Source: Thermoanaerobaculia bacterium
Lineage (GTDB): Bacteria; Acidobacteriota; Thermoanaerobaculia; Multivoradales; Multivoraceae
Direction of reading: 5' to 3'
Assembly (NCBI GenBank): GCA_036257295.1
Contig: DATAFT010000484.1
Location: 1 to 31,282 of the forward strand
Length of the DNA: 31,282 nucleotides
How positions within the stretch are numbered: position 1 is the stretch's first letter; every line of letters starts with the position of its first letter. Positions 7,743-31,282 of the stretch are shown here, piece after piece. The notes below the pieces were generated by a model. That model did no database searches, had not been told where the DNA came from, and worked only from the letters and a program-made list of their open reading frames with translations. The translations under genes were made by a program, and so were the position numbers.

Positions 7743-8977
7743 GATCGGCCGGCGCCACCCACCGTCGCGTCATGGTCACAGGGCTCGGGGCTGTCAGCGC
7801 CGCCGGTTGGGGGGTGGCGCCGCTGCGGCGAGCCCTCTGCTCCGGCCGCACCTTGATCGGCCCCTTCGATCGCCTCGATCACGCCCGCCAACGGACCCAC
7901 GTGGCGGGGCAGGTTCCATCCGGTCCCACAGCGGGCGGCGATGACCTGTCGACCCGTGACCTCTCCATTGCCGACCGGTTCGCGATCTTCGCCGCGATGG
8001 AAGCGGTCGCCGACGCGGAGCTCGCGCTTCCCCTCGACGGCGCTCGCGTAGGCGTCTTCTTCGGCAGCACCACCGGCGGCCTCTACGAAACCGAGAGGTA
8101 CCTCGAAGCGATCGTGCGGCGACCGGACAGTCGGCCGCCGCGCTCGCTTCTCGTCTCGCACTCGCTCGGCGCTCCGGCGGAAGCGGTGGCGAGGCATCTC
8201 GGCATCGAAGGGCCGGTCGAGACCGTGTCGTCCGCTTGCTGCTCCGGAGGGCTCGCCATCGAGCAGGCGCTGCGCGCGGTGCGCAGCGGCGAGGTCGACG
8301 TCGCGCTCGCCGGCGGCGCCGACGTGCTCTGTCTCACCACCTACTCCGGATTCAACGCGCTGCGAGCGGTGGCGGACGGGCCCTGCCGGCCGTTCCGCGC
8401 CGATCGGTCCGGAATGTCGCTGGGCGAGGGTGGCGCCACTCTGGTGCTCGAGTCTCTCGACCATCTGCGCTCGAGAGCGGGACGAGCGCTGGCGGAGCTC
8501 CTGGGCGCTGGCTCGTCGTGCGACGCCAGTCACATGACCGCACCGCATGCCGGCGGGCTGGGGGCGGCGCAGGCGATCGAGCGATCGCTCGAGGACTCGG
8601 GCATCGGTCCCGGAGACGTCGACCTCATCAACGCGCATGCCACCGGGACTCCACTGAACGACGCCGCCGAGTCCGCCGCGTTCGCGCGCGTGTTCGGAGA
8701 CCGCGCCAGCGCCATTCCGGTCGAAGCGACCAAGGGCATGCTCGGACACCTGCTCGGCACCGCCGGCGCCATCGAAGCGGTCTCGGCGGTGATCGGTCTG
8801 CTCGAGAAACAGGTTCATCCCACGTCCGGTGGCGACGGCGTCGATCCCGCGCTGTCGGTCCGGTTGGTGCACGACGCGCCGCTCCCGATGCCGGAGCTGC
8901 GCACGGTGCTGTCGGTGAGCCTGGGATTCGGCGGCGCCAACGCCGCGGTCGTCCTACGGGAGACCGAAGGACCATGA
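7715..8977 (+). CDS. fabF: Beta-ketoacyl-ACP synthase (FabF-like, catalytically intact)
   Basis: VMVTGLG, SSACCSGG (catalytic Cys), NAHATGT and KGMLGH (His-His), SLGFGGANA. Confidence 0.9.
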   Translation: MAGSPRPNRGSAGATHRRVMVTGLGAVSAAGWGVAPLRRALCSGRTLIGPFDRLDHARQRTHVAGQVPSGPTAGGDDLSTRDLSIADRFAIFAAMEAVADAELALPLDGARVGVFFGSTTGGLYETERYLEAIVRRPDSRPPRSLLVSHSLGAPAEAVARHLGIEGPVETVSSACCSGGLAIEQALRAVRSGEVDVALAGGADVLCLTTYSGFNALRAVADGPCRPFRADRSGMSLGEGGATLVLESLDHLRSRAGRALAELLGAGSSCDASHMTAPHAGGLGAAQAIERSLEDSGIGPGDVDLINAHATGTPLNDAAESAAFARVFGDRASAIPVEATKGMLGHLLGTAGAIEAVSAVIGLLEKQVHPTSGGDGVDPALSVRLVHDAPLPMPELRTVLSVSLGFGGANAAVVLRETEGP

Positions 8978-10200
8978 GCCCGGCCACCGCCGCCGTCGTC
9001 GTCACCGGCATCGGCGCCGTGGTCGGTCTGTGCTCGGGCATACGACCGCTGTCGGATGCGCTGCGGGCGGGCGTCCTGCCCAGAACGGAAGTGGATCGCA
9101 GTGCCGGCTACCACCTGCCGGAGTCGGCGCGGGTCGCGGTGCTCACCGACGGCCTCGATCTGTCGTCGTGGGTGACGCCGGCCGCGGGTCGCCGCATGAG
9201 CCCTCCGTCGAAGCTCGGCGTGGCGGCGGCGCGCATGGCGCTCGAGGACGCGGGGTCGCCGCCGGCGCAGGACGGCACCGCCACCGCAGTCGTGATGTCG
9301 ATGGCGTTTCCCGCGGTGGAGGCCACCGAGGGACTGCTGCGGACCGTGTTCGAGCAGGGTCCCGAGTCGGCGTCGCCATTTCTCTTCACCGAGAGCGTGG
9401 CCAACGCGCCGGCCGCGCAGATCGCGATCGCCGTGCAGGCAAAGGGACCGAACCTCACCATCGTCCAGGGCGAAGCAGGAGCCCTCACCGCGATCGGTCG
9501 CGGCATGGCCGAGGTCGCCGCCGGCCGCGCCGATCGCGCTCTGGTCGGCAGCATCCAGGACATGCCGCCGCTGCTCCACGCGCTGCTCGATCGGTTCGGC
9601 GCGCTGGCGCGACCGGAGAGCTCCGGCCGTGAGGTGGCGCGACCGTTCGATCGCCGGCGCGCGGGCTTCGTCGCCGCCGAGGGCGCCGTGGTCCTGGTGC
9701 TCGAGCCGGAGGATCGCGCGCGCGAACGAGGAGCGACGATGCGCGCCCGCATCCGAGGGTTCGGCGGCGCGTTCGATGCCAGCGCTCCCCGCGTCGGTTG
9801 GGGCAGCGGCCACCAGGGCCTCGGTCGCGGACTCGCGCGCATGCTCTCGCGCGCCGCGGTCGAGCCGACGCGGATCGGCCGCATCGTCTCGGGAGCATCG
9901 GGATCGATCGGCGGCGACCGGCTCGAAGCGCGCACGCTGCGCCAGGTCTGGAGGGAGACCAGCCCGCCACCGATCCTGGCGCCGAAAGGAATCGTCGGCG
10001 AGTACGGCGGCGGATTCCTGGCCGCAGCGCTGCTCGCGGCCACTGGCGACCACTTCGCCGCCGGCGAAGAGTTGGAGCCGGATCCGGAGCTCGATCTGAC
10101 GCCACACTCGGGCGGCCCACTGCCAGCGGCCGAGCTCACGCTGGTGACCAGTCTCGCCTCCGGCGGCGCGGCCTCGTGGCTGCTGCTGGAGAGACTGTGA
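8974..10200 (+). CDS. Ketosynthase-like chain-length-factor partner lacking the catalytic Cys
   Basis: ATGA overlap with the KS; VVVTGIG, FTESVANAPA, RPFDRRRAGF and AEGAVVLVLE KS-fold motifs; TIVQGEAGA where SAC is expected; no His-His pair. Confidence 0.82.
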   Translation: MSPATAAVVVTGIGAVVGLCSGIRPLSDALRAGVLPRTEVDRSAGYHLPESARVAVLTDGLDLSSWVTPAAGRRMSPPSKLGVAAARMALEDAGSPPAQDGTATAVVMSMAFPAVEATEGLLRTVFEQGPESASPFLFTESVANAPAAQIAIAVQAKGPNLTIVQGEAGALTAIGRGMAEVAAGRADRALVGSIQDMPPLLHALLDRFGALARPESSGREVARPFDRRRAGFVAAEGAVVLVLEPEDRARERGATMRARIRGFGGAFDASAPRVGWGSGHQGLGRGLARMLSRAAVEPTRIGRIVSGASGSIGGDRLEARTLRQVWRETSPPPILAPKGIVGEYGGGFLAAALLAATGDHFAAGEELEPDPELDLTPHSGGPLPAAELTLVTSLASGGAASWLLLERL

Positions 10201-10871
10201 TGCGGCTCGCGGTCGCGATTCCGGCGTACGAGGCGGCTCCCTTCGTGGGGTCGGTGGTCGAGCGCACCATGGCGGTCATCCGCGACGTGCTGGTGGTCGA
10301 CGACGGGTCGCGCGACGGGACCGCGAGCGCCGCGCGCGCGACCGGAGCCGAGGTTCACGTGCTGCCGAACAACCTCGGCAAGGGAGCGGCACTGCGCACC
10401 GCGTTCGACATCCTGTTCTCGAACGGCTTCACCGGCGTGGTCACGCTCGACGCCGACGGCCAGCACCTGCCCGAGGAGATTCCCCGACTGCTCGAGGCCG
10501 CGGGCCACGCCGATCTGGTGCTGGGCACCCGGGATCATCTGTTCGATCAGATGAGCACGCTGCGTCGATGCAGCAATCGCTTGTCGTCGCGCGCGATCTC
10601 GTGGGCGGCGGGCCAGCCGGTCACCGACGTCCAGACCGGATTTCGCTTCTACGCGCGCGAGCTGATCGAACGCACCGGCTTTGCCGGGCAGCGCTTCGAG
10701 GCCGAGAGCGCGGTGGTGGTGCGCGCCGTGCGACTGGGAATGCGAGTCGCCACCACACCAGTCCGACTCGGTTGCGCCGACGGCAGAGCGACCAGCCACT
10801 ACCGCCCGCTGACCGACAGTCTCCGCATCGGCGCGGCGGTGGTGCGCTCGCGATTCGAGCGTCCGTCATGA
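10200..10871 (+). CDS. Glycosyltransferase family 2 (DPM1/ArnC-like, 223 aa)
   Basis: IPAYE, VVDDGSRDGT, NLGKGAA, TLDADGQH, DVQTGFR, RFEAE. Confidence 0.9.
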   Translation: MRLAVAIPAYEAAPFVGSVVERTMAVIRDVLVVDDGSRDGTASAARATGAEVHVLPNNLGKGAALRTAFDILFSNGFTGVVTLDADGQHLPEEIPRLLEAAGHADLVLGTRDHLFDQMSTLRRCSNRLSSRAISWAAGQPVTDVQTGFRFYARELIERTGFAGQRFEAESAVVVRAVRLGMRVATTPVRLGCADGRATSHYRPLTDSLRIGAAVVRSRFERPS

Positions 10872-11593
10872 CGGGCACCGTGCTCGTGACCGGCGGCAGC
10901 CGCGGCATCGGGCGCGCGGTGGTCGAGGCGCTGGTCGGCGAGGGCGCTACCGTCGCGTTCACCTTCCGCAGCGACGAGAGCGCGGCGAAGGCGGTGGAGT
11001 CGGCGGCCGCGGGGCGAGCCCGCGCCTTCGCGCTCGACCTGCTCGATCACGACGCGCCCGGCCGACTGGTGCGCGAGATCGAGAAGTCGGTCGGACCTCT
11101 CGACGGGCTCGTCAACAACGGGGGCATCCGCCGCGAGTCGATTCTCGCCATGACGCCCGATCGCGACTGGGAGGAACTGCTCGACGTCAACACCGGCGGC
11201 GCCTTCCGCTGCTGTCGCGCCGTGCTCCCGGGCATGATCCGACGCCGGCGCGGCGCCATCGTCAATGTCTCGTCGCTCGCCGCGGTCGAAGGTGTCGCCG
11301 GGCAGACCGCGTACGCGGCTTCCAAGGCAGCGCTGCTCGGCCTCACCCGCGCGCTGGCACGGGAGGTCGGTCCTCGCGGCGTTCGGGTGAATGCCGTCCT
11401 GCCCGGCTTCGTGGCGACCGACATGACGGCGACGCTACCCGCGGACGTCGTGCGCGCGCTGCGATCCCACGAGTGTCTTCCCAACGGCATCTCCGCCGCG
11501 GACGTCGCGCAGGCGGTGACCTTCCTGTTGTCGGAGCGCGCCGCCGCGATCACGGGTCAATCGATCCTGGTTGACGCCGGCACCTCGGCCTGA
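10868..11593 (+). CDS. fabG: 3-oxoacyl-ACP reductase (SDR)
   Basis: TGGSRGIG, VNNGGI, YAASK, VNAVLPGFVATDM; ATGA overlap with the GT2 gene. Confidence 0.9.
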   Translation: MTGTVLVTGGSRGIGRAVVEALVGEGATVAFTFRSDESAAKAVESAAAGRARAFALDLLDHDAPGRLVREIEKSVGPLDGLVNNGGIRRESILAMTPDRDWEELLDVNTGGAFRCCRAVLPGMIRRRRGAIVNVSSLAAVEGVAGQTAYAASKAALLGLTRALAREVGPRGVRVNAVLPGFVATDMTATLPADVVRALRSHECLPNGISAADVAQAVTFLLSERAAAITGQSILVDAGTSA

Positions 11594-12552
11594 TGGTGAC
11601 TGCCAACGGCGCAGCGCCTCCGCCAGCAGCGCCGCCACAAGCACCGGCACTGGGCGCTTCGTACCGTCTGCTCGGCCGGTTCCATGTCGCCGGCGTCTTC
11701 TGGTACCGATTTCCCTACTGGGGCTTCGGCCGGCTTCCCGAGTGGACGGACCGGGTCACCGTCCCGTTCTTCACCGCCGTGTTCTGGATCGCTCTCCGTC
11801 GCATCCGCGGCGCGATCGCTGCGAACCTCGAGGCGGTCCTCGGTCCCGCCAGCCTGCCGGCGCGGTGGCGGCGCGCGCTGCGCACCATGGACTCGTTCGG
11901 CTGGTGTCTGGCGGAGCGCTATCGCTACCTGGCGACACCCGAGCGGTTCCACGCCGCGATCGAAGGCGAGGAGAACTGGCGCAACGCCTTCGACGGCGGC
12001 CGCGGCGCGGTGGTCGTCACCGCGCACATCGGGCCGTGGGAGAACGCGGTGCGGTTCGGAGCTTCCGACGCCAAGCGACGGATCCACGTCGTGCGCGAGA
12101 AGGAGCTCGATCCACGCGCTCAAGAGTTCGTGAGCGAGCTGGTGTCGCGCTCCGGCGCCGGCTACACGACCCACTTCGCCGACGACGACCCGACGCTGGG
12201 CTTGGAGCTGGTGAAGGCGCTGCGCGCTGGAGACATCGTAGCGCTGCAGGGGGACCGGCCCCGGACCGGCGGGCAGTCGCACCAGGTCGAGGTCTTCGGC
12301 CGTCCGATGCAATTCCCGATCGGTCCGGCCGCGCTCGCCCGCGCGGCCGAGGTTCCGATCGTCCCGGTCTTCAACTTCCGCGAGGGACGATTCCGGCTGC
12401 GATCGGTGGCGCGCCCGGTCATCCACGTCGACCGCACCGCCGATCGCGATCGTGACCTCGCGTCCGCCGTCGAGCGGCTCGCGGCGGACATCGAGTGGGC
12501 GATCCGCCGTTCACCTCACCAGTGGTTCTGCTTTCGGCGACTATGGAGGTAG
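11593..12552 (+). CDS. LpxL/HtrB-type lysophospholipid acyltransferase
   Basis: VVVTAHIGPWE, VALQGDR, VEVFG..FP.GPA.LA..AEVPIVPVF, and the C-terminal P.QWF motif. Confidence 0.82.
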   Translation: MVTANGAAPPPAAPPQAPALGASYRLLGRFHVAGVFWYRFPYWGFGRLPEWTDRVTVPFFTAVFWIALRRIRGAIAANLEAVLGPASLPARWRRALRTMDSFGWCLAERYRYLATPERFHAAIEGEENWRNAFDGGRGAVVVTAHIGPWENAVRFGASDAKRRIHVVREKELDPRAQEFVSELVSRSGAGYTTHFADDDPTLGLELVKALRAGDIVALQGDRPRTGGQSHQVEVFGRPMQFPIGPAALARAAEVPIVPVFNFREGRFRLRSVARPVIHVDRTADRDRDLASAVERLAADIEWAIRRSPHQWFCFRRLWR

Positions 12553-17047: not shown

Positions 17048-17142
17048 TGGGCGCCGTCCGCGGCGCCAACGACATCGGCCCAAAAGGCGTGGTAACCACC
17101 ACGCTCCTTTTGGGCGCCGTCCGCGGCGCCAACGACATCGGC
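17048..17142. repeat. Two 32-bp direct repeats (17048-17079, 17111-17142) around a palindromic 31-bp spacer; REP/BIME-like
   Basis: tgggcgccgtccgcggcgccaacgacatcggc occurs twice. gcccaaaagg/ccttttgggc and cgtggt/accacg can form a long hairpin. Confidence 0.8.
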
Positions 17143-22102: not shown

Positions 22103-24556
22103 TCAGACGTCCGGAGTGGACCGCGCTGGCACCGGCGCGGTCCACTGTCCCCCCCACCCGCGGTGCAGGTCGTGCAGGAACGCCTTCCAGTCGGCAGCGG
22201 TCCGCGACGGCGGATAGGGCTCCGGCGCCTCGGGTGCGGCAGCGGTCCACACCACCTCGAAGCGACCATCGGGTCGCACGCGACCGATGCGCGGCGTCTT
22301 CCACAGATGCTGGGTCTCGGCGTCGACCCGCACGTCGCCCCCGGGCGAGCGCAGCCGCTGGTTGCGCATGGCGTTGCGGATGTCGCGCGGTGTCGTGCTC
22401 TTCGCCTCCTCGATCGCCTTGGCCCACAGCTTGACACCGGTGTAAGCCGCCTCCATCGGGTCGGTCAGCACGCGCTGCTGGCCGTAGCGATGGCGAAAGG
22501 CACGTAGGAACTCGTGGTTCTCGGGAGTGTCGATGCTCTGGAAGTAGGTCCACGCGGCGTAGTCGCCCACCATCTCGTCGATATCGAGGCGGCGGAGCTG
22601 CTCCTCGCTGACGCTGAACGACAGCGTGGGGGTGTCCTCGCTTCTCACACCGGCCGCGCGCAGCTCGTGAAAGAACGTGATGTTGGTCGAGCCGTTGATG
22701 GTGTTCAAGATCATGTCCGGCTTGGCCGCCACGATCTGCTCGATCGCCGGTTGGACGCGCGTCGAGCCGAACGGTATGTAGGTCTCGCCCACCACCTGGG
22801 CGTCCGCCAGTCCCGCGAGCGTGTCCCGGACGATGGCGTTGGCGGCATGCGGAAAAACGTAGTCGGATCCGACCAGGAAGAAGCGGCGCTTGCCGAGACT
22901 GGTGTAGGCCCACTCGACCGCGGGGAGGATCTGTTGGTTCGGCGCCGCACCGGTGTAGATCACCGCCGGCGACTGCTCGATCCCCTCGTACTGGACCGGG
23001 TACATCAGCAGGTTGTCGCGCGCCTCGAACAACGGGACGACGGTACGGCGGCTCGAGGACGTCCAGCAGCCGAACACGGTGACCACGTGCTCGTCGTCGA
23101 TCAGGCGCTCGGCCTCGCGAGCGAAGGTGGCCGGGTCGGAGCGGCCGTCGACGACTATCGCCTCGACCGGGCGGCCGAGGACGCCTCCTGCGGCGTTCAG
23201 TTCTTCGACCGCGAGCAGCGTGGCGTCGACCACCGGCGATTCGGCGTCCGCCATGGTGCCGGTCAGTGAGTGCAGGATTCCGACTCGCACCGGAGGGCCG
23301 GTCGCCGCCACCACCGGTGCTGCGGCCTCGCGGTCCGCCCCGCCCGGTCCCCGCGCGACCCACAACACCGCGGCCACGATCGCGGCGGTGATGGCGGCCA
23401 CCAGCCCGAGCAGACGCAGTCGCCGGCCCAGCCGCCCCACGCCATCGCCGTCGCCGGCGTCGGCTGTGACCGAGCCGCTGCGCGACCGCGGCGTGGTCGT
23501 CGTCACCTCCCCGAGCTGGCTGGGTAGACCGAGCCGCACCGCGCCCGACAGCATGCCGCCGATCGCGTCGAGGTCTTGCAGCATCTCGCGCGCGCTTTGA
23601 TACCGGTGCTCGGGTTTCTTGGCCATCGCGCGCGCCACCACCGCGGCGCACGTTTCGGGCACCGCCGGGTTGATGCTGCGCGGGTTCGGCGGATCGGCGT
23701 GGCAATGCGCGAACATCACCTGCACCGCGCTGCCGCGGTCCTGGTAGGGCGCGGCGCCGGTGAGCATGGTGTAGTAGGCCGCCCCCAGCGAGTAGATGTC
23801 GCTGCGATGGTCGGCCGGCTCGGCGTTGCACTGCTCGGGGCTCATGTAATACGGCGTGCCGAGCACCTCTCCGGTGCGCGTCATGCCTCGCCCCGCCTCG
23901 AAGGTCTGCTTGGCGAGCCCGAAGTCGACGACCTTGACCACGCCTTCTTCGGTGAAGAGCAGGTTGGCCGGCTTGATGTCGCGATGCACGATGCCGGCCG
24001 TGTGCGCGGCCTGGAGGCCGCGGCAGGCGTCGGCGGCGGCGGTGGTGGCCTGCAGCGGAGTGAGGACGCCGCCGCGCGCCAACCGCTCCTCCACCGAGCC
24101 GCCGGTGATGAGCTCCATCGCCAGGTAGTACTGGCCCTCCTGTTGACCGACTTCGTAGATCGCGGCCGCGTTGGCGTGCTGGAGGCGGGCCGCCGACTTC
24201 GCCTCGGCCAGGAAGCGATCGAGGTAGGACGAGTCGGTCGAGAGCTCGAGGGGCAGCAGCTTGATGGCGACGTCGCGATCGAGCGTGTCGTCATGGCCGC
24301 GGTAGACGACCCCCATGCCGCCGCCGCCGATGCGGTCGAGGATCGTGTACTTGCCGAGCCGCCGGCCTTCCCACGGGTCCTGCCACGGACCGCCGGGCGG
24401 CGGTCCGGTCACGCCCGGAGGCGCGCCCGGCTGACGCGAGATGTGTACGGTGCGATCGAGCGCAGGGCTCGCCTCCGGAGCGCGGTCCGCAGGCGCTCCC
24501 GGGCCCGTGCCATCGCCGCGGCGCTGATCCGGAGGCTTCTGGTCCTGCGGCGCCAT
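22103..24556 (-). CDS. Hanks-type Ser/Thr kinase - TM - UrtA/AmiC-like urea/amide-binding domain fusion (817 aa)
   Basis: Kinase motifs IGGGGMGVVY, VAIK, HRDIKPAN, DFG, GTPYYMSPEQ; TM segment LLGLVAAITAAIVAAVLWV; then GILHSLTGTMA, FGCWTS, YPVQYEG, GSDYVFP, DPMEAAY and HLWKTPRIG typical of UrtA. ATG 24556 follows the upstream stop by 1 bp. Confidence 0.88.
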   Translation of the reverse strand: MAPQDQKPPDQRRGDGTGPGAPADRAPEASPALDRTVHISRQPGAPPGVTGPPPGGPWQDPWEGRRLGKYTILDRIGGGGMGVVYRGHDDTLDRDVAIKLLPLELSTDSSYLDRFLAEAKSAARLQHANAAAIYEVGQQEGQYYLAMELITGGSVEERLARGGVLTPLQATTAAADACRGLQAAHTAGIVHRDIKPANLLFTEEGVVKVVDFGLAKQTFEAGRGMTRTGEVLGTPYYMSPEQCNAEPADHRSDIYSLGAAYYTMLTGAAPYQDRGSAVQVMFAHCHADPPNPRSINPAVPETCAAVVARAMAKKPEHRYQSAREMLQDLDAIGGMLSGAVRLGLPSQLGEVTTTTPRSRSGSVTADAGDGDGVGRLGRRLRLLGLVAAITAAIVAAVLWVARGPGGADREAAAPVVAATGPPVRVGILHSLTGTMADAESPVVDATLLAVEELNAAGGVLGRPVEAIVVDGRSDPATFAREAERLIDDEHVVTVFGCWTSSSRRTVVPLFEARDNLLMYPVQYEGIEQSPAVIYTGAAPNQQILPAVEWAYTSLGKRRFFLVGSDYVFPHAANAIVRDTLAGLADAQVVGETYIPFGSTRVQPAIEQIVAAKPDMILNTINGSTNITFFHELRAAGVRSEDTPTLSFSVSEEQLRRLDIDEMVGDYAAWTYFQSIDTPENHEFLRAFRHRYGQQRVLTDPMEAAYTGVKLWAKAIEEAKSTTPRDIRNAMRNQRLRSPGGDVRVDAETQHLWKTPRIGRVRPDGRFEVVWTAAAPEAPEPYPPSRTAADWKAFLHDLHRGWGGQWTAPVPARSTPDV

Positions 24557-24557
24557 G

Positions 24558-25367
24558 TCAGCGCGGTCGAGAGGGCTCGCGGAACCTTTCGGGCTCCGGC
24601 GCGGCAACGGCGTCGTCCCGTTCGAGCAAGATGGGCCCGCCCGGCAAGGCGAATCGATAGCCGACGCCCCGCACGGTCGAGATGTACTGGTAGCGCTCGT
24701 CCGACGGCTCGAGCTTGGAGCGCAGCCGGTAGACGTGGGCGCGTAGCGTCTCCTCGCCGGCCTCTTCGGTGGGCCAGAGACGCGCGAGCAGGAACCGCGA
24801 CTCGACCGTGCGGCCCACCTCGCGCACCAGCAGGTAGAGGATCTTGGTCTCGGTCGGCGTGAGCGGGCGACGCTCCTCTCCGACCAGGAGCGAGCGCCGG
24901 CCGAAGTCGACCGCCAGGTGCTCGTCGATGTGCACCAGCGCACCGGTGGTGTAGGAGAAGCCGGGCACCCGGCGCAGCAACGCGACCACCCGCGCCGCCA
25001 GCTCCGCCGGAATGAACGGCTTGCGCACGAAGTCGTCGGCGTGGCGGTCGAGCGTGCGGACGATCAACGAGGTGTCGTGCACGAAACTCATGGCGACGAT
25101 GGGCACGTCGGCGATCTGCCGCACTCGCTCGCAGAAGCCGGCGCCGTCGAAGGCCGGATTCCCGAGCTCGACCACGGCGGCGTGCGGGAGGCCGCGCTGC
25201 TCGACCAACTTCCAGGCTTCGGCCATGCCTGCCACCGTCCATACCTCGAGGCGGCGCGCCTCGAGCGCGACGACCGCGCTGTCACGGCTGTCGCGCTCGG
25301 GGTCCGCCACCAGCACGCGCGGTGGTGCGCCGATCGATTTCGCCGGAAGGACCTCCGGCATCACCAT
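24558..25367 (-). CDS. OmpR/PhoB-family response regulator with atypical receiver domain (phosphoacceptor Asp replaced by Glu)
   Basis: VLVADPE, AAVVELGNP (Glu67, GAG at 25167-25169), IVAMS, DDFVRKPF; wHTH motifs LTPTETKIL, TLRAHVYRLRSKLE, STVRGVGYRF. Confidence 0.85.
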   Translation of the reverse strand: MVMPEVLPAKSIGAPPRVLVADPERDSRDSAVVALEARRLEVWTVAGMAEAWKLVEQRGLPHAAVVELGNPAFDGAGFCERVRQIADVPIVAMSFVHDTSLIVRTLDRHADDFVRKPFIPAELAARVVALLRRVPGFSYTTGALVHIDEHLAVDFGRRSLLVGEERRPLTPTETKILYLLVREVGRTVESRFLLARLWPTEEAGEETLRAHVYRLRSKLEPSDERYQYISTVRGVGYRFALPGGPILLERDDAVAAPEPERFREPSRPR

Positions 25368-25368
25368 C

Positions 25369-26856
25369 TCACTGATTCCCGTTCCCGGCAGCGACGCTGG
25401 GCTCCAGGCTCAGGTTCTCGAGCGCACGGATCACGTTGAGACGTCCGTAGCCAACTTCGAGAGCGAGCGACCCGTTGACCTCGGCGCTGTGCGACAGCGC
25501 GGCGAGCGCTCGATCGAGGTCGAGAGGCACGCCGGTTTGGGCCGCGCGCTGCGCCAGCAGCGCGATCGCCCCCGAGACCCACGGCGTCGAGAACGACGTG
25601 CCGGAAGCCGCCGCCCAGGTGCCGCCCGGATAGGTCGTGATCACCGACACTCCTGGCGCCGCGAGCTCGACCACGTCACCGCCATAGTTGGAGAACGGCG
25701 CCACGAAGTCGGCGAGATCGGTGGCGGCCACGCCGATCGCGCCCGGCGCCGCGGCTGGGTAGACCACGACGCTCGAGCCGTCGTTGCCGGCTGAGGCGAC
25801 GCAGATCGCGCCCCAAGAGAGCGCGTACGCGATCGCGTTCGCGAGTGTCTCGGAGTCGTCGTCGAGGGTGAAGCTCAGATTGATGACCGTGGCTCCCTCA
25901 CGCGCCGCGTAGTGGATGGCCTGCACCGCGTCGAACGTGTTGCCGTTGCCGTCCGCGTCGAAAGCACGCAGCGGCAGGATTCGCGCTCTGGGCGCCACCA
26001 GGTGGATGATGCCGGCGACCATGGTGCCGTGCCCGAAGGCCGGACCGATCTGGCCGGCGAGCTCGGAGCCCACTCCCGCCTCCACCAGCACGCTGGTCGA
26101 GGGATCCACCTGGAACGCTTCGATCCCACCCGCGTTCATCAGAACCGCCCGCGTCCGCTGATCGAGGATGGCCATGGTCGACTGATCGAGCAGGGCGAGC
26201 GCCTGGCCGTTGCCGTTGCCGTTGGTGCGCAGCGAGCCGTTCCCCTGGTCCTGGAGGAAGTCCCTTCCTTCTAGCAGCTGGCTCGCCAGAACCGGGTGTT
26301 CGGTGTCGATGGCGGAGTCGATCACCGCGATCACGATGTCCTTGCCACTCGCGCGCGAATGGGCCTCGCCCAGACGGATGATCTGCGACGACGGCTGGTC
26401 GGCGAACCCGATCCACAGCTCCCTGGCTTCCCCGTGCGGATCGACGCCGAGATCGATGGTGCCCTCTAGCGCGGCGGCTTCGAGAATCGCGCCCGGCGAC
26501 TGTTCGACCGGTGCGCTCGCGAGAACATCGGGCGCCCGGAACTCGCGCAGCGGCTCCGCCTTCTCGATCACCGTTTCGCGCGCCACGAGTGCCGCTGCAG
26601 TCTGCTCCGGTGTCCCCGCCGCGTCGAGCGAGACCAGCGCCAGGTCATCGCCGCCAAGATCGCGCTCGGTCTGAAGGACGGTCAGCTGGTTGCGGGCGGC
26701 GATCTTCTTGATCTGCCCGGGCGACACCTGGATGATGAGAACCTGTTGCGTGCCCACCGGCGGCTTGGCAGCGACGGTGGCTGCGGCCGACCAGGCCACC
26801 AACGCCAAGACCAAGGGAAGAGTGCGGCTCCAGGCGCGGCGGATTCGTGTTCGCAT
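25369..26856 (-). CDS. Exported S8 (subtilisin-like) serine protease with propeptide
   Basis: Signal peptide; IAVIDSAID (Asp 26317-26319), GHGTMVAG (His 26029-26031), ASAGN, SGTSFSTP (Ser 25594-25596). Confidence 0.9.
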   Translation of the reverse strand: MRTRIRRAWSRTLPLVLALVAWSAAATVAAKPPVGTQQVLIIQVSPGQIKKIAARNQLTVLQTERDLGGDDLALVSLDAAGTPEQTAAALVARETVIEKAEPLREFRAPDVLASAPVEQSPGAILEAAALEGTIDLGVDPHGEARELWIGFADQPSSQIIRLGEAHSRASGKDIVIAVIDSAIDTEHPVLASQLLEGRDFLQDQGNGSLRTNGNGNGQALALLDQSTMAILDQRTRAVLMNAGGIEAFQVDPSTSVLVEAGVGSELAGQIGPAFGHGTMVAGIIHLVAPRARILPLRAFDADGNGNTFDAVQAIHYAAREGATVINLSFTLDDDSETLANAIAYALSWGAICVASAGNDGSSVVVYPAAAPGAIGVAATDLADFVAPFSNYGGDVVELAAPGVSVITTYPGGTWAAASGTSFSTPWVSGAIALLAQRAAQTGVPLDLDRALAALSHSAEVNGSLALEVGYGRLNVIRALENLSLEPSVAAGNGNQ

Positions 26857-26907
26857 TCGTAGTTTTCGCTCCGACCCCTAGAGGTCGGCAGGTCCATCAT
26901 CCCGCAC

Positions 26908-27348
26908 TCACAGACTCTCGGGACTCGTCGCGCCCTCCATCACAGGTCTTGCGGCGAGCAGAGGATCGAGCGGGATTTCAATCCGTCCTCGATCGGTGAT
27001 CGGCAGGCACAACCGGAGGCCCGTTCCGGGACGGACCTCGAACACGAACTCTCCGTTGCGATTCCCGAACATCCATCCGGCCACCCGCTCGCCGTCCAGC
27101 AACAGCACGGCGCTTCCGCCCAGACCCTTGAGCGGGTCGCGGCGGTCCGCGAGCTGACCGTGCACGGCGACGGCTCCGCTGTCGAGATCAGGCTCGAGGC
27201 GCAGGTCGACGCAGAGATCATCGGCCTCGAACAGCAGATGGCGGCCGTCGTGCGCCATCTTGCGCACGCCCCGCCTGGGCAGAGCCGCATCGCTGTCGAA
27301 GGCGAGCGTCACCGACAGCATGTCGAGGTCGAATGGGCGCGGTTCCAT
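26908..27348 (-). CDS. Hypothetical 146-aa beta-rich protein (LxFDS...GVR...RxLLF...GQL...GEF pattern)
   Basis: GAGGGA 7 nt before ATG 27348 and TATGCT further upstream. The pattern resembles, from recall only, small proteins encoded next to CHAT/S8 genes. Confidence 0.65.
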   Translation of the reverse strand: MEPRPFDLDMLSVTLAFDSDAALPRRGVRKMAHDGRHLLFEADDLCVDLRLEPDLDSGAVAVHGQLADRRDPLKGLGGSAVLLLDGERVAGWMFGNRNGEFVFEVRPGTGLRLCLPITDRGRIEIPLDPLLAARPVMEGATSPESL

Positions 27349-27462
27349 ATGGCAATCCCTCGAAATCAGAGCATAACCCCGGTGGCAGAGTCCCCTCATG
27401 CCGGCAGCTACCCTCCGCCGGACGCTCCACCATCCTGAGAAGGCGCTAGATTAACGCACTCG

Positions 27463-30354
27463 TTACCCTTGGGCTAAAGGCGTGTCACCGAGCAGGGGTC
27501 GGCCCGACGGACGGCCCGCCAGAAAGAAAGGGGCCCAGTAGTAGGGGTGCGGGTAGGCGTCCCGTAGCTCGACCATGGCATCCCTCAGGGCGGCCGCTCG
27601 ATCCGGCTGTGCCTGGAGCCGCTGGTAGAAGGCCTGCATGAACCGTCGGGTGCTCTCGTCCTGGGCGTCCCACAGCGTCGCTACCACGGTCTGGGCCCCG
27701 GCGTAGAGGAGGCCTCGCACCAGGCCGATCTGCTCGTCCCCGCCCTCGACCCCTCCGAGGCCGGTCCCACAACCGCTCAGGACCACCAGCTCGGAGACCA
27801 GGTCGAGTTCGTAGAGGTCGAGCACGGTCAGCCGGGAGGCGCCCCCCAGCTGGATCGCCGAGAACATCGGGTTGTCACGACGGAAGAACCCGTGCGCCGC
27901 GACGTGGATCAATCCGGCTCCGCCGCCCCACCGCCGCAGCGCGTCCGGCGTCGCCTGGTCGCCGAGTAGAACGCGCGCCCCCGGCATCGCGGACGCAACC
28001 ACGCCGGCTTCAGCCGCGATGCCGGGGTTGTAGTCGTCGGGCACCGCCAGGATCAGCGCGCCCGCAGTGGTCCGCGCCGGCCGCATCGAGCAGAGACGGA
28101 ACACGCTGGCGCTGGGCGCATACGACAGCGCGAAGTGATCCACCAGATACGACTCGCCGTTCCAAAGCGCCTGGAAGGGAACCCGGTGGAGCGGCCCGTG
28201 CGGCACCACGATCAGGGATCGCGCGTCGAGCAGTGACCGCAGCGGCGCGATCAGCTCGTCGTCGAGCTCGCGCAGGTGAGACCGCACCGCGAGCAGCAGC
28301 GCCTCATCGAAGGTCCTGACGTAGGCCTCGCCGAGCTGTAGCTTCGAGAGCTGGAACTGGAGGAAGCCGAGCAGGCGGCGCACGCGCTCGGACGAGCTGA
28401 CGGGACGCACCTCGATCCGGTCGCGGCCGACCACGAAGGCGAACACGATGCCGCGGGCTTCGTAGTACTCGAGCAGCAGAGTGTCGTCGGGCAGCGCGGC
28501 CATGACCGCCTCGACCGAGATGCCGGTGGATTCGAGCGCATCGAAGTCGAGGTCCCGGCTGCGCAGTCGGTTGGTGACCTTGATCAGCTTCCCCTCGAGC
28601 TGCCGACTGCGGCGCCGGAGGTCGTCCACAGTGCCGGTCGCAACCCCGCGGCCGAGCAGCGCCTCGCCGCCGCCCTCGCTCGGCCCGTTGCCCGCGATGT
28701 CGGCGGCATCGAGCTGGCTGTAACACCAGTTGAGCTCCTCGCGGAGCAGCCGCATCTCGGCTTTGAGCCCGCTCGGCGCGCGGCCCGCGCGCCGCGGTCC
28801 GATCGAGCGCGGGGCGATCATGTCGGCGAACGCCCTCGACTTCGCGTTCTCGACCCAGGCGAGCGCGTCGGCTCCGCTGCCCGGCTCCATCGTCTCCAGC
28901 GTGAGCCAGATCAGGCTCTCGAACACCGCCTGCTTGTCCTTGACGAACGCGATCAACAGCTCTTCGCTGTGGAGGTGGGCGCGCAGACCGCCGAGGACGG
29001 TGCAGGCATCGCGGTACCGCTCGAGAGCCGTGGCGCGGTCACCGCTCGCCTCGGCGATCTGGCCGTCGACGAACGAGGCGCGGTAGAGCAGGTGCGGCGA
29101 GTCGAGTTGCTCGAGCCGCCGGCGCGCTTCGACCGCGTGCCGGCTCGCGTCGCCGTACGAGCCCAACGCCAGCTCGGTGCGCGCCAGCAGCAGCTCGGCG
29201 AGAACGACGCGCGGAGTCTGGCCGGCGTCGAGGAACCAGTCGCGCGCGCGGTTGGCTTCGCGCCGAGCGTCCTCCGGTCGCCTCGCCTCGAGCAGCGCGA
29301 TGGCTCGGTAGAAGTCGACCATCGCGCACCAGGCGTGGTTTCCTTCGGCGTCGAATCCGCGCCGCGCCTCCGCGAACAACGCCGCGGCCGAGTCGGACTC
29401 TCCGCGCTGTCCGGCGGCGATCGCGGCGAAGGCAGTCGCCTTCGACGCCTCGTAGCGCAGCTTGAGCCCCGCGAACGCGGCCCGTGCCTGCTCGGCGAGC
29501 TCGGCCGCTTCGGCGGTGAGATTCACGTCGAGATAGATCTCCGCCAGGTCGAGGCGGCAGAGCGCCTCGTGGTAGATGTCGCCCTGCTCGCGGCTGCGCT
29601 CGACGGCGGCGCGGTAGTGCTCGATGGCGCGCGTGTACTCGCCGCGGTGGAAGTGGAGATAGGCGAGGTTGTACTCCGCCTGCAGCGCCGGCAACGGCAT
29701 TCCGTTCCGGCGGCAGTGGGCGCTCATCTCGATGAATCGCGCCTCCGCCTCGGGCAGGTCGCCGAGGATGATCAGACACACCGCCGAGTTGAGCAGCGCC
29801 GCCGCGGTCGCCTGCGGATCGCCGCCGTGCGCGCGGAAGAAGCGCAGCGAGGTCTCGTAGGCCGCCAGCGCCTCCCGGTGGCGGTCCAGACGATGCAGGA
29901 GGTTGCCGAGGTTGCAGTCGAGCCGCGCCACCAGCAGTGGATCGCGGTGGCGCACGAACACCTCGCGCGCGGCGGCCGCCCAGCTCTGCGCATGGTCGTA
30001 ACGTCCGAGCAGGATCAGCGTCTGGAGCCCGCTGCTCCTGGTCTTGGCGCCCTCGATCTCGTCGTTGCCGCTGGCAAACGCTTCGAGCGCGCGCTGATAG
30101 AGCACGATCGCTTCCTCGAGACGACCCGAGAGGTAGCGAACGTTGGCGAGGCAGCGGAAGGAGAGGCCGGTCGTGGTGGGATCGTCGAGCGTCGCGGCGG
30201 CGTCACACGCCGCGGTCGCGGTCGCTTCGGCCTGGCGAAGATCGACGCGCGCCAGCCGCAGCGCTTCCTGCGCCAACTCGCGCACGCTCGAGGGAGTCGC
30301 AGCAGCGCGGATCTCGGGCGCCGGAGCACCTTTACCCTCGGGCTCCGAGGTCAC
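27463..30354 (-). CDS. TPR-CHAT (caspase-like clan CD) protease, 963 aa
   Basis: About 550 aa of TPR-like helices; then IVVPHGPLHRVPFQAL, IHVAAHG (His 27892-27894), VVLSGCGTG (Cys 27769-27771), AGAQTVVATLW, PYYWAPF. GTG 30354 with TATCAT 6 nt upstream. Confidence 0.9.
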   Translation of the reverse strand: MTSEPEGKGAPAPEIRAAATPSSVRELAQEALRLARVDLRQAEATATAACDAAATLDDPTTTGLSFRCLANVRYLSGRLEEAIVLYQRALEAFASGNDEIEGAKTRSSGLQTLILLGRYDHAQSWAAAAREVFVRHRDPLLVARLDCNLGNLLHRLDRHREALAAYETSLRFFRAHGGDPQATAAALLNSAVCLIILGDLPEAEARFIEMSAHCRRNGMPLPALQAEYNLAYLHFHRGEYTRAIEHYRAAVERSREQGDIYHEALCRLDLAEIYLDVNLTAEAAELAEQARAAFAGLKLRYEASKATAFAAIAAGQRGESDSAAALFAEARRGFDAEGNHAWCAMVDFYRAIALLEARRPEDARREANRARDWFLDAGQTPRVVLAELLLARTELALGSYGDASRHAVEARRRLEQLDSPHLLYRASFVDGQIAEASGDRATALERYRDACTVLGGLRAHLHSEELLIAFVKDKQAVFESLIWLTLETMEPGSGADALAWVENAKSRAFADMIAPRSIGPRRAGRAPSGLKAEMRLLREELNWCYSQLDAADIAGNGPSEGGGEALLGRGVATGTVDDLRRRSRQLEGKLIKVTNRLRSRDLDFDALESTGISVEAVMAALPDDTLLLEYYEARGIVFAFVVGRDRIEVRPVSSSERVRRLLGFLQFQLSKLQLGEAYVRTFDEALLLAVRSHLRELDDELIAPLRSLLDARSLIVVPHGPLHRVPFQALWNGESYLVDHFALSYAPSASVFRLCSMRPARTTAGALILAVPDDYNPGIAAEAGVVASAMPGARVLLGDQATPDALRRWGGGAGLIHVAAHGFFRRDNPMFSAIQLGGASRLTVLDLYELDLVSELVVLSGCGTGLGGVEGGDEQIGLVRGLLYAGAQTVVATLWDAQDESTRRFMQAFYQRLQAQPDRAAALRDAMVELRDAYPHPYYWAPFFLAGRPSGRPLLGDTPLAQG

Positions 30355-30392
30355 GCGGGGATGATAGCGCCGCACTATCCGCGAGATGGCAA

Positions 30393-30448
30393 GCGCCGTC
30401 CGCGGCGCCGAGAAGATGCTCGCGTAGGGCGTGGTAAGCACCACGCCC
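30393..30448. repeat. Second copy of the bipartite palindromic module, including a GTAG-type REP-like hairpin
   Basis: gcgccgtccgcggcgcc (30393-30409), then 18 nt, then ggcgtggtaagcaccacgc (30428-30446). GTAG at 30424-30427 directly precedes the perfect hairpin. Confidence 0.75.
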
Positions 30449-30479
30449 GGAGCGAGGCGCTGCCCTACAATCCGCCCGC

Positions 30480-31282
30480 GTGGTGAAGCGATCCGACGAC
30501 GAAGCGCCCCGCCCCGCCGCCTCGAGCGGCGCGTCGGTGCTGCTGCGACAACCGGCGTTCCGGGCGTTCGCCGCCTCCCGCTTCTTCTCCGGTGTGGCGC
30601 TCACGCTGCTGCGCGCGGCGGTGGCGTGGCAGGTCTACGAGATCACGGGCTCGGCGTTCCACCTCGGGATGATCGGTCTCGCACAGTTCATTCCCGCGCT
30701 GGTGCTCAACCTCATCGGCGGCGCCGCCGCCGACGCTTACGATCGCAAGCGGTTGGTGATGCTGTTCCAACTGGTGCCGATCGCGTGCTCCCTGCTGCTC
30801 GCGATCGCGAGCTTCGATCGCCAGCCGAGCCTGGCCGTCCTCTACGGTGCGGTGATGATCGTGGCCGCAGCCGCGGCCTTCGAAGCCCCGGCCCGCGCCG
30901 CGCTACTGCCCCAGCTGGTCGAGCGCAGAGTGTTCCCCATCGCGGTGGCGCTCCACTCCACGATCCAGATGGGGGCGTTCGTGAGCGGTCCGGTGCTGAT
31001 GGGGTTCGCCGTCGCGCACGGCGGCATCGTGCTCCCCTACGCCATTCACGCCGCCCTGATGGTCGCCGCGCTGTTCACCATGGCGCGGGTGAAGGTGCTC
31101 AACGCCGCCGCGCCCAGCGGACGCATCGGCGTCGCCGCCATCGCCGAGGGCCTGCGCTATGTCCGCCACCAGCCGGTGGTCCTCGGCTGCATGACGCTCG
31201 ACATGTTCGCCGTGCTGTTCGGTGGAGCCACCGCGCTGCTGCCGATCTACGCCACCGACATCCTCCACGTCGGGCCGCGCGG
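30480..31282 (+). CDS. MFS transporter (DHA3/EntS-like), 3' end outside the window
   Basis: Not in the ORF track because there is no stop. Manual translation from GTG 30480 gives ...FRAFAASRFFS...AVAWQVYEITGSAFHLGMIGLAQF.P...GGAAADAYDRKR...PARAALLPQLV...EGLRYV...LDMFAVLFGGATALLPIYATDILHVGP. TACAAT lies 8 nt upstream. Confidence 0.85.
   Translation, partial: MVKRSDDEAPRPAASSGASVLLRQPAFRAFAASRFFSGVALTLLRAAVAWQVYEITGSAFHLGMIGLAQFIPALVLNLIGGAAADAYDRKRLVMLFQLVPIACSLLLAIASFDRQPSLAVLYGAVMIVAAAAAFEAPARAALLPQLVERRVFPIAVALHSTIQMGAFVSGPVLMGFAVAHGGIVLPYAIHAALMVAALFTMARVKVLNAAAPSGRIGVAAIAEGLRYVRHQPVVLGCMTLDMFAVLFGGATALLPIYATDILHVGPR

What the first reader, a model, noticed from the sequence alone, without database searches (positions are those of the whole stretch)
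22103..30354. Candidate undescribed signalling/proteolysis system: TPR-CHAT + small protein + S8 protease + Asp-to-Glu regulator + urea/amide-receptor kinase
Seen: five co-oriented genes with gaps of 114, 51, 1 and 1 bp. There are two proteases with intact catalytic residues in different predicted compartments (cytoplasmic CHAT, exported S8), a DNA-binding regulator that cannot take canonical Asp phosphorylation, a transmembrane Hanks kinase with an external UrtA-like sensor, and no histidine kinase, sigma factor, cas gene or NTPase. Established: TPR-CHAT proteases are autoinhibited switches (Csx29 in type III-E CRISPR cleaves Csx30, which binds an ECF sigma factor), and Hanks kinases can phosphorylate response regulators. 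Recall: CHAT-S8-small protein loci often include an ECF sigma. Inference: here the output is rewired to a kinase/pseudo-receiver pair, coupling a small-amide cue to a protease cascade (developmental, stress or defence role unknown).
Basis: partly seen in the sequence, partly recalled or inferred. Interest (0 to 1): 0.85.

Follow-up and report, generated by a model that had tools for sequence, protein, structure and literature searches.

The report
Sigma-less CHAT/subtilase cassette joined to urea-sensing kinase
The five genes are real and travel together, but they are a stripped-down offshoot of a common, already catalogued sigma-factor/caspase-like-protease/subtilase cassette that has lost its sigma factor and picked up a urea-sensing kinase with an odd regulator; whether the two halves talk to each other is unproven.

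Summary
Observation confirmed. Five co-oriented minus-strand genes with gaps of 114, 51, 1 and 1 bp encode:
- a cytoplasmic TPR-CHAT protease
- a 146-aa beta-sandwich protein
- a secreted S8 subtilase
- an OmpR-type regulator with Glu at the phospho-acceptor site
- a membrane Hanks kinase whose outer domain keeps all eight urea-contacting residues of UrtA.

The first three genes are not an undescribed system. They are a derived form of a widespread cassette: ECF sigma, zinc-finger anti-sigma with the same beta-sandwich, TPR-CHAT and secreted S8. Of 38 sampled loci, 37 have the sigma. This scan has noted the cassette more than 100 times on other DNA, and ECF reviews mention the context.

On a CHAT tree the sigma-less, short-form loci form one nested clade (support 98). 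They have lost the sigma, the anti-sigma domain and, in the window's own sub-branch, an upstream Opp-like importer.

The regulator and kinase sit behind the cassette only in the window's narrow lineage (five loci). A sister species lacks all five genes. Another sigma-less locus lacks the pair, and the same kinase type stands alone in Planctomycetes.

My best reading is one operon in which a urea-sensing kinase and pseudo-receiver regulator supply the transcription control that the sigma once gave. Cross-talk with the proteases is untested.

The parts
27463..30354 (-). TPR-CHAT caspase-like protease, 963 aa, cytoplasmic, His821/Cys862 dyad intact
   Evidence: Pfam CHAT 1.4e-64 plus TPR_12 and TPR_MalT. 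Dyad motifs located. GTG start conserved in L002 and L196. 68% identical to the L003 orthologue. Nested in the sigma-linked CHAT clade.
26908..27348 (-). 146-aa beta-sandwich protein: the C-terminal domain of a soluble ZAS anti-sigma family, here without the anti-sigma domain
   Evidence: No Pfam hit. 912 representative homologues, most about 210 aa with an 80-aa N-terminal extension that carries HxxxCxxC. AF2 model pLDDT 82, all-beta. Family-invariant GQ and GEF motifs kept. dN/dS 0.11-0.15 against close relatives.
25369..26856 (-). Secreted S8 subtilase, 495 aa, with signal peptide, an intact Asp180/His276/Ser421 triad, and three copies of a DQSTxAIL-type octapeptide (residues 118, 224, 232)
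   Evidence: Peptidase_S8 5.4e-40. Motif positions and hydrophobic N-terminus. Octapeptide repeats compared across loci.
24558..25367 (-). OmpR/PhoB-type regulator with a degenerate (pseudo-)receiver: Asp22-Pro23, Glu67 at the acceptor position, Ser94 and Lys116; intact winged helix
   Evidence: Pfam. Alignment to KdpE. Orthologue alignment shows Glu or Asp at the acceptor, but Asp-Pro or Asp-Ala in every orthologue.
22103..24556 (-). Receptor Hanks Ser/Thr kinase, 817 aa: kinase domain 70-327, one membrane span at about 379-403, extracytoplasmic UrtA-like domain 423-784 with a complete urea pocket
   Evidence: Pfam and NCBIfam. Motifs and hydrophobic span. All eight urea-contact residues of Prochlorococcus UrtA are conserved (PMC10392092; alignment to 8hic).
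30355..30482 (.). Divergent promoter region between the CHAT gene and the upstream MFS gene. Conserved TATCAT lies 8 nt before the CHAT GTG and TACAAT lies before the MFS GTG. In the window it is interrupted by REP-like hairpins (30393-30447).
   Evidence: Sequence. Alignment with L003, L196 and L002. The hairpin has about 45-50 copies genome-wide.

Best explanation
The locus is one operon made of two parts with different histories.

Part A (TPR-CHAT, beta-sandwich protein, secreted S8) is a reduced descendant of a common acidobacterial cassette. In its nearest complete relatives that cassette reads: Opp-like peptide importer, ECF sigma, TPR-CHAT, soluble zinc-finger anti-sigma with a C-terminal beta-sandwich, then a secreted S8 that carries tandem DQSTxAIL octapeptides. 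The window's lineage has lost the sigma gene and the anti-sigma domain, and the importer is no longer next to the locus. It keeps intact proteases and a beta-sandwich protein under purifying selection.

Part B is a membrane Hanks kinase with an external urea-binding (UrtA-type) domain, plus an OmpR-type regulator whose receiver cannot be phosphorylated on Asp in the usual way.

Most likely working (inferred, not shown): urea outside the cell changes kinase activity. The kinase phosphorylates the pseudo-receiver regulator on Ser or Thr. The regulator then sets transcription of its own operon, and so of the exported subtilase, taking over the output role that the lost sigma had. That would tie extracellular proteolysis to nitrogen status.

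The CHAT protease probably still binds or cleaves the beta-sandwich protein, as its relatives are thought to cleave the full anti-sigma. Whether that step feeds into the regulator is unknown.
For: Shown:
- Gene set, spacing and intact catalytic residues.
- The small protein belongs to a family of 912 representative clusters. Most carry a ZAS anti-sigma N-terminus.
- In 38 phylum loci the sigma is adjacent in 37, CHAT in 34 and S8 in 29. The regulator is adjacent in none.
- The four sigma-less short-form loci form one clade (SH-aLRT 98). It is nested among loci with the order sigma-CHAT-antisigma-S8.
- All six complete or near-complete loci of that wider clade have the Opp-like importer directly upstream.
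- S8 octapeptide repeats occur in 6 of the 8 loci of that clade by the motif pattern. A seventh, L045, has a QQSAAV variant seen by eye. Only 1 of 28 S8s outside the clade has the motif.
- The five-gene order is kept in the window, L002, L003, L196 and a 13-kb JGI contig.
- The same-genus genome G001 (91% complete) lacks CHAT, the regulator and the UrtA-like domain together. G008 has them together, up to where its contig ends inside the kinase.
- The small gene has dN/dS 0.11-0.15.
- The urea pocket is complete.
- Glu67 and Pro23 in the receiver.

Inferred:
- Co-transcription, from the 1-bp gaps and the absence of a convincing terminator-like site between the genes (2 sites found, no more than in shuffles, neither between genes).
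- Kinase-to-regulator phosphorylation, from adjacency and from known Hanks-kinase/response-regulator pairs (my own knowledge: Stk1-CovR, PknH-DosR, StkP-RitR).
Against: - Sigma loss does not require the regulator/kinase pair. L081 is sigma-less and short-form but carries an HD-domain gene instead.
- UrtA-type receptor kinases are very common. A search found 3643 relatives of the sensor region, most of the best ones carrying a kinase domain. In seven Planctomycete loci they stand without regulator, CHAT or S8 within 8 kb.
- Conservation of the five-gene order is seen only in a narrow lineage, where neighbouring unrelated genes upstream (MFS, GNAT, RR-SpoIIE) are conserved too. Synteny alone is therefore weak evidence.
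- No regulator binding site was identified.
- No cognate peptide importer was found in the 79%-complete genome; the best match is 29% identical. The input to the TPR-CHAT part is therefore unclear.
- No experiment exists for any member of the cassette.
Confidence: 0.5

Rival explanations
1. Two independent modules that happen to be neighbours. Under this reading a sigma-less CHAT/beta-sandwich/S8 remnant cassette sits next to an unrelated urea-sensing kinase and atypical regulator. The pair was inserted downstream, possibly by horizontal transfer, and regulates other genes such as nitrogen metabolism. There is no functional link to the proteases beyond read-through transcription.
For: - The cassette occurs without the pair in every other sampled locus, including sigma-less L081.
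- The kinase type occurs alone in Planctomycetes. Its sensor there is 59-69% identical to the window's, with best-segment identity of 52-56% over the full-length matches. That is consistent with separate acquisition.
- The upstream unrelated genes are just as syntenic as the pair.
Against: - The gaps are 1 bp, and in the JGI contig the HD gene's last base is the regulator gene's first.
- Downstream synteny appears to break right after the kinase in L196, while the five genes stay together. This rests on called genes and Pfam labels, not on an alignment.
- The regulator orthologue is found only where the short-form cassette is found, among the family genomes searched.
Confidence: 0.33
2. The CHAT module still works as a sigma switch, but in trans. 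Under this reading the CHAT protease acts on an unlinked anti-sigma that has the same beta-sandwich domain. One such pair is the anti-sigma/sigma pair on contig C23 of the same genome. The short protein would act as a decoy or regulator.
For: The own genome has a second, long-form copy (E 3.4e-19) directly followed by an ECF sigma.
Against: - That pair lacks the Cys residues of the zinc motif.
- It lies next to a C39-peptidase ABC exporter and a HlyD gene.
- It is present in the sister species G001, which has no CHAT at all, so it works without CHAT.
Confidence: 0.07
3. The locus is an anti-phage or conflict system: a protease-based abortive-infection module.
For: TPR-CHAT proteases act in type III-E CRISPR and in the DdvA-controlled defence island (PMC10028731, PMC11506125). 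PADLOC gives weak hits to BovA, a subtilase model and kinase models.
Against: - There is no cas gene, NTPase or nuclease, and no mobile-element hallmark.
- GC content is even across the window.
- The PADLOC hits are generic domain matches.
- The Csx29 model scores 36.6 against a cut-off of 300.
- The cassette sits in conserved chromosomal context beside nutrient transporters.
Confidence: 0.05

Closest known systems
ECF sigma / soluble ZAS anti-sigma / TPR-CHAT / secreted S8 cassette. The gene context is reported for ECF54-type sigma factors in the review PMC8999054. It is untested experimentally and has been seen repeatedly in this scan.
   Same: - Homologous TPR-CHAT (35-61% identity by domain)
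- Homologous beta-sandwich domain
- Homologous secreted S8 with the same octapeptide motif
- Same gene order as the sigma-CHAT-antisigma-S8 subclade
   Different: - No sigma gene on the contig
- The small protein lacks the whole anti-sigma domain
- No Opp-like importer upstream
- A regulator and a receptor kinase are appended
Type III-E CRISPR craspase arm: Csx29 (TPR-CHAT) cleaves Csx30, which holds an ECF-like sigma (PMC10028731)
   Same: A cytoplasmic TPR-CHAT protease encoded next to a small partner protein. In the parent cassette the partner is an anti-sigma.
   Different: - No Cas7-11 and no CRISPR
- The Csx29 model scores far below its cut-off (36.6 against 300)
- The partner is unrelated to Csx30
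- No sigma here
DdvA/DdvS of Myxococcus xanthus: a transmembrane ZAS anti-sigma with a periplasmic TPR-CHAT (PMC11506125)
   Same: TPR-CHAT combined with zinc anti-sigma logic, in the parent cassette.
   Different: - In DdvA the CHAT is periplasmic and fused to the anti-sigma
- Here CHAT is cytoplasmic, on a separate gene, and there is no anti-sigma domain or sigma
Hanks kinase to atypical OmpR-family regulator pairs (my own knowledge: Stk1-CovR, StkP-RitR, PknH-DosR; ChxR as a regulator with Glu at the acceptor)
   Same: - A Ser/Thr kinase gene directly follows an OmpR-type regulator with a non-canonical receiver
- No histidine kinase nearby
   Different: - The sensor is a UrtA-type urea-binding domain
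- The pair is embedded in a protease operon
- Phosphorylation is not demonstrated
UrtA, the urea ABC-transporter binding protein (PDB 8HIC, 7S6E, 7S6F; PMC10392092), and AmiC
   Same: - Same fold family
- E 1e-92 to UrtA structures
- All eight urea-contact residues conserved
   Different: - Fused behind a membrane span to a kinase
- No urtBCDE genes
- Scores below the UrtA equivalog cut-off
- Used as a sensor, not for transport

Membership tests
ECF sigma / ZAS anti-sigma / TPR-CHAT / S8 cassette | ECF sigma gene in the cluster | tested here: not met
   No Sigma70_r2 match on the whole contig. No tblastn hit with a cassette sigma.
ECF sigma / ZAS anti-sigma / TPR-CHAT / S8 cassette | Partner protein with an N-terminal anti-sigma domain (HxxxCxxC helical bundle) | tested here: not met
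   The protein starts at the beta-sandwich. Only 114 bp separate it from the CHAT stop. Long forms have four helices and the zinc motif.
ECF sigma / ZAS anti-sigma / TPR-CHAT / S8 cassette | Homologous C-terminal beta-sandwich domain with invariant GQ and GEF motifs | tested here: met
   Profile search and alignments. Motifs at residues 64-65 and 99-101.
ECF sigma / ZAS anti-sigma / TPR-CHAT / S8 cassette | TPR-CHAT with a His-Cys dyad and a secreted S8 with an Asp-His-Ser triad | tested here: met
   The CHAT falls inside the cassette clade.
Type III-E craspase (Csx29/Csx30/sigma) | Csx29 equivalog score, and a Cas7-11 or CRISPR neighbourhood | tested here: not met
   NF041237 scores 36.6 bits against a cut-off of 300. 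No cas domains were seen in the genes examined.
Canonical OmpR/PhoB two-component response regulator | Phospho-acceptor Asp and the acidic Mg-binding pair | tested here: not met
   Glu67 aligns with KdpE Asp52, and Asp22-Pro23 replaces the acidic pair. Some orthologues keep Asp at the acceptor, but all have Asp-Pro or Asp-Ala.
Canonical OmpR/PhoB two-component response regulator | Winged-helix output domain; conserved Ser/Thr and Lys of the receiver | tested here: met
   Trans_reg_C 4.1e-19. Ser94 and Lys116.
Canonical OmpR/PhoB two-component response regulator | Cognate histidine kinase nearby | tested here: not met
   No HATPase_c match on the contig.
UrtA urea-binding protein | Urea-contact residues Trp, Ser, Tyr, Gln, Glu, Tyr, Asn, Ser | tested here: met
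   Residues named in PMC10392092. They map to Trp498, Ser500, Tyr519, Gln522, Glu524, Tyr566, Asn621 and Ser648 through the 8hic alignment.
UrtA urea-binding protein | Equivalog score and urtBCDE transporter partners | tested here: not met
   TIGR03407 scores 455.6 against a cut-off of 492.75. The domain is fused to a kinase, and no ABC permease genes lie beside it.
Hanks-type Ser/Thr kinase | VAIK Lys, HRD catalytic loop, DFG, SPE/APE motif | tested here: met
   Pkinase 1.2e-47. Motifs at residues 96-99, 191-193, 211-213 and 239-241.
Known anti-phage defence systems (PADLOC) | Specific match of the gene set to a defence-system model | tested here: not met
   Only generic kinase and subtilase matches and a weak BovA match. 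No match for the small protein or the regulator.

The most novel reading that the evidence does not exclude
In this lineage the caspase-like CHAT switch may have been re-plumbed from a sigma/anti-sigma output to a transcription regulator. Under this reading the CHAT protease, perhaps gated by the S8-derived DQSTxAIL peptide, acts with its beta-sandwich partner on the pseudo-receiver OmpR regulator. That regulator is also phosphorylated by a urea-sensing Hanks kinase. One regulator would then integrate a self-made peptide cue by proteolysis and a nitrogen cue by Ser/Thr phosphorylation.
Probability: 0.15. Interest if true: 0.75.

Novelty: new variant of a known kind. Interest (0 to 1): 0.45.

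Why it matters
No member of the sigma/anti-sigma/TPR-CHAT/S8 cassette has been tested, although it is common in soil phyla. A natural variant that keeps the protease, the beta-sandwich partner and the subtilase, but has discarded the sigma and the anti-sigma domain, shows which parts can work without the sigma output. It also singles out the beta-sandwich domain as the likely CHAT-interacting part.

The appended urea-sensing kinase and pseudo-receiver regulator give a testable link between nitrogen status and secreted proteolysis. If cross-talk exists, it would be an example of one signalling output being swapped for another during evolution.

If there is no cross-talk, the locus is an ordinary case of operon accretion.

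Tried and rejected
- **Structure search for the small protein.** Foldseek against the PDB gave no significant match for either the short or the long form. The best results were generic Ig-like sandwiches, with ChrR at E 0.012 for the long form. The anti-sigma assignment therefore rests on the zinc motif and on sigma adjacency.
- **Locus scans.** The one metagenome scan, with A1, returned a single 1.3-kb contig. The census of short-form loci stayed small as a result.
- **Hairpins as a regulator operator.** Rejected. Hairpin B has about 45-50 copies across the genome, often in tandem, so it is a REP-like element. It is an insertion relative to L003, L196 and L002.
- **Regulator as a general partner of UrtA-type kinases.** Rejected.
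- **Defence system.** No support.
- **Decaying remnant.** Rejected. Catalytic residues are intact and dN/dS is 0.11-0.15.
- **Trans-acting sigma pair on contig C23.** Considered unlikely.
- **Supplements of the ECF classification paper.** Not held, so the ECF group of the cassette sigma could not be assigned.
- **dN/dS for CHAT and S8.** The calculation failed on my coordinates.
- **Kinase gene on the 13-kb JGI contig.** It could not be verified because no DNA is held.
Full report
**1. What is there**

The window is a whole 31,282-bp contig of a 79%-complete, 70%-GC metagenome-assembled genome. A genome of the same family carries the NCBI name 'Thermoanaerobaculia bacterium', so the organism is probably an acidobacterium.

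Five minus-strand ORFs lie at 27463-30354, 26908-27348, 25369-26856, 24558-25367 and 22103-24556. Profile searches confirm the domains:
- TPR plus CHAT
- an orphan 146-aa protein
- Peptidase_S8
- Response_reg plus Trans_reg_C
- Pkinase plus Peripla_BP_5 (UrtA model 455.6 bits, just under its 492.75 cut-off)

Catalytic residues are all present:
- CHAT His821 and Cys862
- S8 Asp180, His276 and Ser421
- kinase Lys99, Asp193 and DFG

S8 has a signal-peptide-like N-terminus. The kinase has one hydrophobic span, at about residues 379-403. CHAT and the small protein have neither.

The chosen starts are supported by conservation of the N-termini in relatives. No sigma-70 region 2 or histidine-kinase ATPase domain lies anywhere on the contig.

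**2. The regulator and the sensor**

In the alignment with E. coli KdpE, Glu67 sits on the acceptor Asp52 and Pro23 sits on the second residue of the acidic pair.

Among orthologues (62-91% identity), some have Glu and some have Asp at the acceptor position. All have Asp-Pro or Asp-Ala instead of Asp-Asp. A sister group at 40-48% identity is fully canonical. The whole orthologous group therefore looks like a pseudo-receiver. Glu67 is one symptom of this, not the cause.

The sensor domain's closest solved relatives are an 'extracellular ligand-binding receptor' (8tg1), three UrtA structures (E about 1e-92), and AmiC more distantly. A structural study of Prochlorococcus UrtA names eight strictly conserved urea-contacting residues (PMC10392092). 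In the alignment to that structure all eight, and also Phe192, are conserved in the window protein. Urea is therefore the best guess for the ligand.

**3. What the first three genes are**

The small protein has 912 representative homologues at 50% clustering. Most are about 210 aa and match through their C-terminal 130 residues. Their extra 80 N-terminal residues carry nearly invariant His28, Cys32 and Cys35, the HxxxCxxC zinc anti-sigma motif. They model as four helices, a low-confidence linker and the beta-sandwich.

I fetched 38 loci around homologues from 400 genomes of the phylum. The counts within each cluster were:

| Feature | Loci of 38 |
|---|---|
| ECF sigma | 37 |
| TPR-CHAT | 34 |
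| S8 (several loci are cut by contig ends) | 29 |
| The regulator | 0 |
| A kinase, in each case more than 5 kb away | 3 |

The parent system is a four-gene sigma/anti-sigma/CHAT/S8 cassette.

This context is mentioned for ECF54-type sigma factors in a review (PMC8999054). This scan's notebook holds more than 100 notes on it from at least 94 genomes. It is not undescribed, but it is untested.

**4. Where the window's version sits**

A maximum-likelihood tree of 34 CHAT proteins puts the four sigma-less, short-form loci (window, L003, L081, L083) in one clade (SH-aLRT 98). That clade is nested in a clade of loci with the order sigma-CHAT-antisigma-S8 (L010, L012, L044, L045). I left out L071, L073 and L076 as partial or divergent, and the frameshifted long-read contigs L002 and L196.

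All six well-covered loci of that wider clade carry an Opp-like ABC importer directly upstream, made of two ATPases, two permeases and an SBP_bac_5 protein. L045 and L081, and also the JGI contig, carry an HD_5 gene after the cassette.

Their S8 proteins carry DQSTxAIL-type octapeptides in the propeptide and in an insertion between the catalytic Asp and His. One of them, L044, has about 20 tandem copies. Only 1 of 28 S8s from the other clades has the motif. I reproduced the repeats and the importer linkage, but not the mechanism.

The window's S8 keeps three copies, and DQSTMAIL is identical in L003. However, the importer is absent from the locus, and the best match in this incomplete genome is only 29% identical.

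The window's part A is thus a reduced derivative. It has lost the sigma, the anti-sigma domain and the adjacent importer. It keeps the proteases and the beta-sandwich protein, and the latter is under purifying selection (dN/dS 0.11-0.15).

**5. Is the regulator/kinase pair part of it?**

For:
- The five genes are kept in the same order in the window, L002, L003 and L196.
- They are also kept in a 13-kb JGI contig, which has an HD gene whose last base is the regulator gene's first. Its last gene, cut by the contig end, could not be checked.
- The gaps are 1 bp, with no convincing terminator-like site between the genes.
- By gene content, L196 differs from the window directly downstream of the kinase, while the five genes stay together.
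- In the family, the regulator orthologue was found only where the short-form cassette is. The 91%-complete same-genus genome G001 lacks CHAT, the regulator and the UrtA-like domain together.

Against:
- L081 is sigma-less but has no regulator or kinase. Sigma loss therefore came first, or independently.
- Kinase-UrtA fusions are very common. In seven Planctomycete loci they have no regulator, CHAT, S8 or sigma within 8 kb.
- Their 59-69% sensor identity to the window protein suggests that the kinase was acquired separately.
- Unrelated upstream genes are equally syntenic in this narrow lineage.
- I found no regulator binding site. The hairpins upstream of CHAT are REP-like repeats with about 45-50 genomic copies.

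One side observation bears on plausibility. A 1207-aa protein joins a zinc anti-sigma finger, a Hanks kinase and two UrtA-like domains, and it lies right after an ECF sigma gene. So this kinase type is hard-wired to sigma control elsewhere.

**6. Verdict**

The locus is best described as a new variant of a known but untested cassette, fused in one probable operon with a urea-sensing receptor kinase and a pseudo-receiver regulator.

I favour, at about even odds, the reading that the kinase-regulator pair now provides the transcriptional control of the operon that the lost sigma once gave. That would link secreted proteolysis to nitrogen status. The main rival, at about one in three, is simple neighbourhood without functional coupling.

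A direct proteolytic link between CHAT and the regulator is possible but unsupported (about 0.15). A cascade between a cytoplasmic CHAT and an exported S8 has no evidence, and neither does a defence role.

The class-level search included one unpublished genome (G083). No claim here rests on it.

Noticed in passing
window 30393-30447 and 17051-17130: The double hairpin upstream of the CHAT gene is a dispersed REP-like element. Hairpin B (GGCGTGGT-loop-ACCACGCC) has about 45-50 copies in the 3.8-Mb assembly, often as pairs about 62 bp apart. In the window it is an insertion relative to the same intergenic region in L003, L196 and L002.
   Followed up: partly
L044 (G443:C43) S8 gene at about 10100-12000; also L043, L081, L083, L003; window S8 residues 118, 224, 232: S8 proteases of this cassette subclade carry DQSTxAIL octapeptides. 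One protein has about 20 tandem copies in its propeptide, in blocks separated by a conserved basic spacer, which resembles a pheromone polyprotein precursor. The motif is nearly absent from S8s of the other cassette clades (1 of 28).
   Followed up: partly
L010, L043, L044, L045, L081, L083: An Opp-like ABC importer (two ATPases, two permeases, SBP_bac_5) lies directly upstream of the sigma or CHAT gene, in the same orientation, in all six loci of the subclade. An HD_5 gene follows the cassette in L045, L081 and the 13-kb JGI contig.
   Followed up: partly
L207 119-4371 (protein P0174): A 1207-aa protein with an N-terminal zf-HC2 anti-sigma finger, a Hanks kinase domain and two UrtA-like domains lies immediately downstream of an ECF sigma gene. 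This would be a receptor kinase fused to an anti-sigma domain.
   Followed up: no
proteins P0173 and P0177: UrtA-like domains about 52-55% identical to the window's sensor are also fused to a trypsin-like protease (P0173) and to HEAT/STAND-NTPase modules (P0177). The urea-type binding domain therefore appears to be a widely reused sensor.
   Followed up: no
G000:C23 (L066) 6510-7833; G001 L011 9282-10300: The same genome holds a second, long-form beta-sandwich anti-sigma without the Cys motif. It is followed by an ECF sigma and sits beside a C39-peptidase ABC exporter and a HlyD gene, with no CHAT or S8. The beta-sandwich anti-sigma family is therefore used in other contexts too.
   Followed up: partly
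protein P0165: In one 677-aa database protein the anti-sigma/beta-sandwich protein and the S8 protease are joined in a single frame, with the S8 signal peptide in the middle. This is either a real membrane-spanning fusion or a merged gene call.
   Followed up: no
window 30355-30482: Both divergent genes (CHAT and the upstream MFS) have a -10-like hexamer (TATCAT, TACAAT) only 8-9 nt before their GTG starts, conserved in relatives. This suggests leaderless transcripts.
   Followed up: no
L196 319-3844; JGI 13-kb contig: In relatives, genes for a GAF-HATPase protein, a receiver-SpoIIE phosphatase and a GNAT lie beyond the divergent MFS gene and are conserved. The window's contig ends before them.
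   Followed up: no
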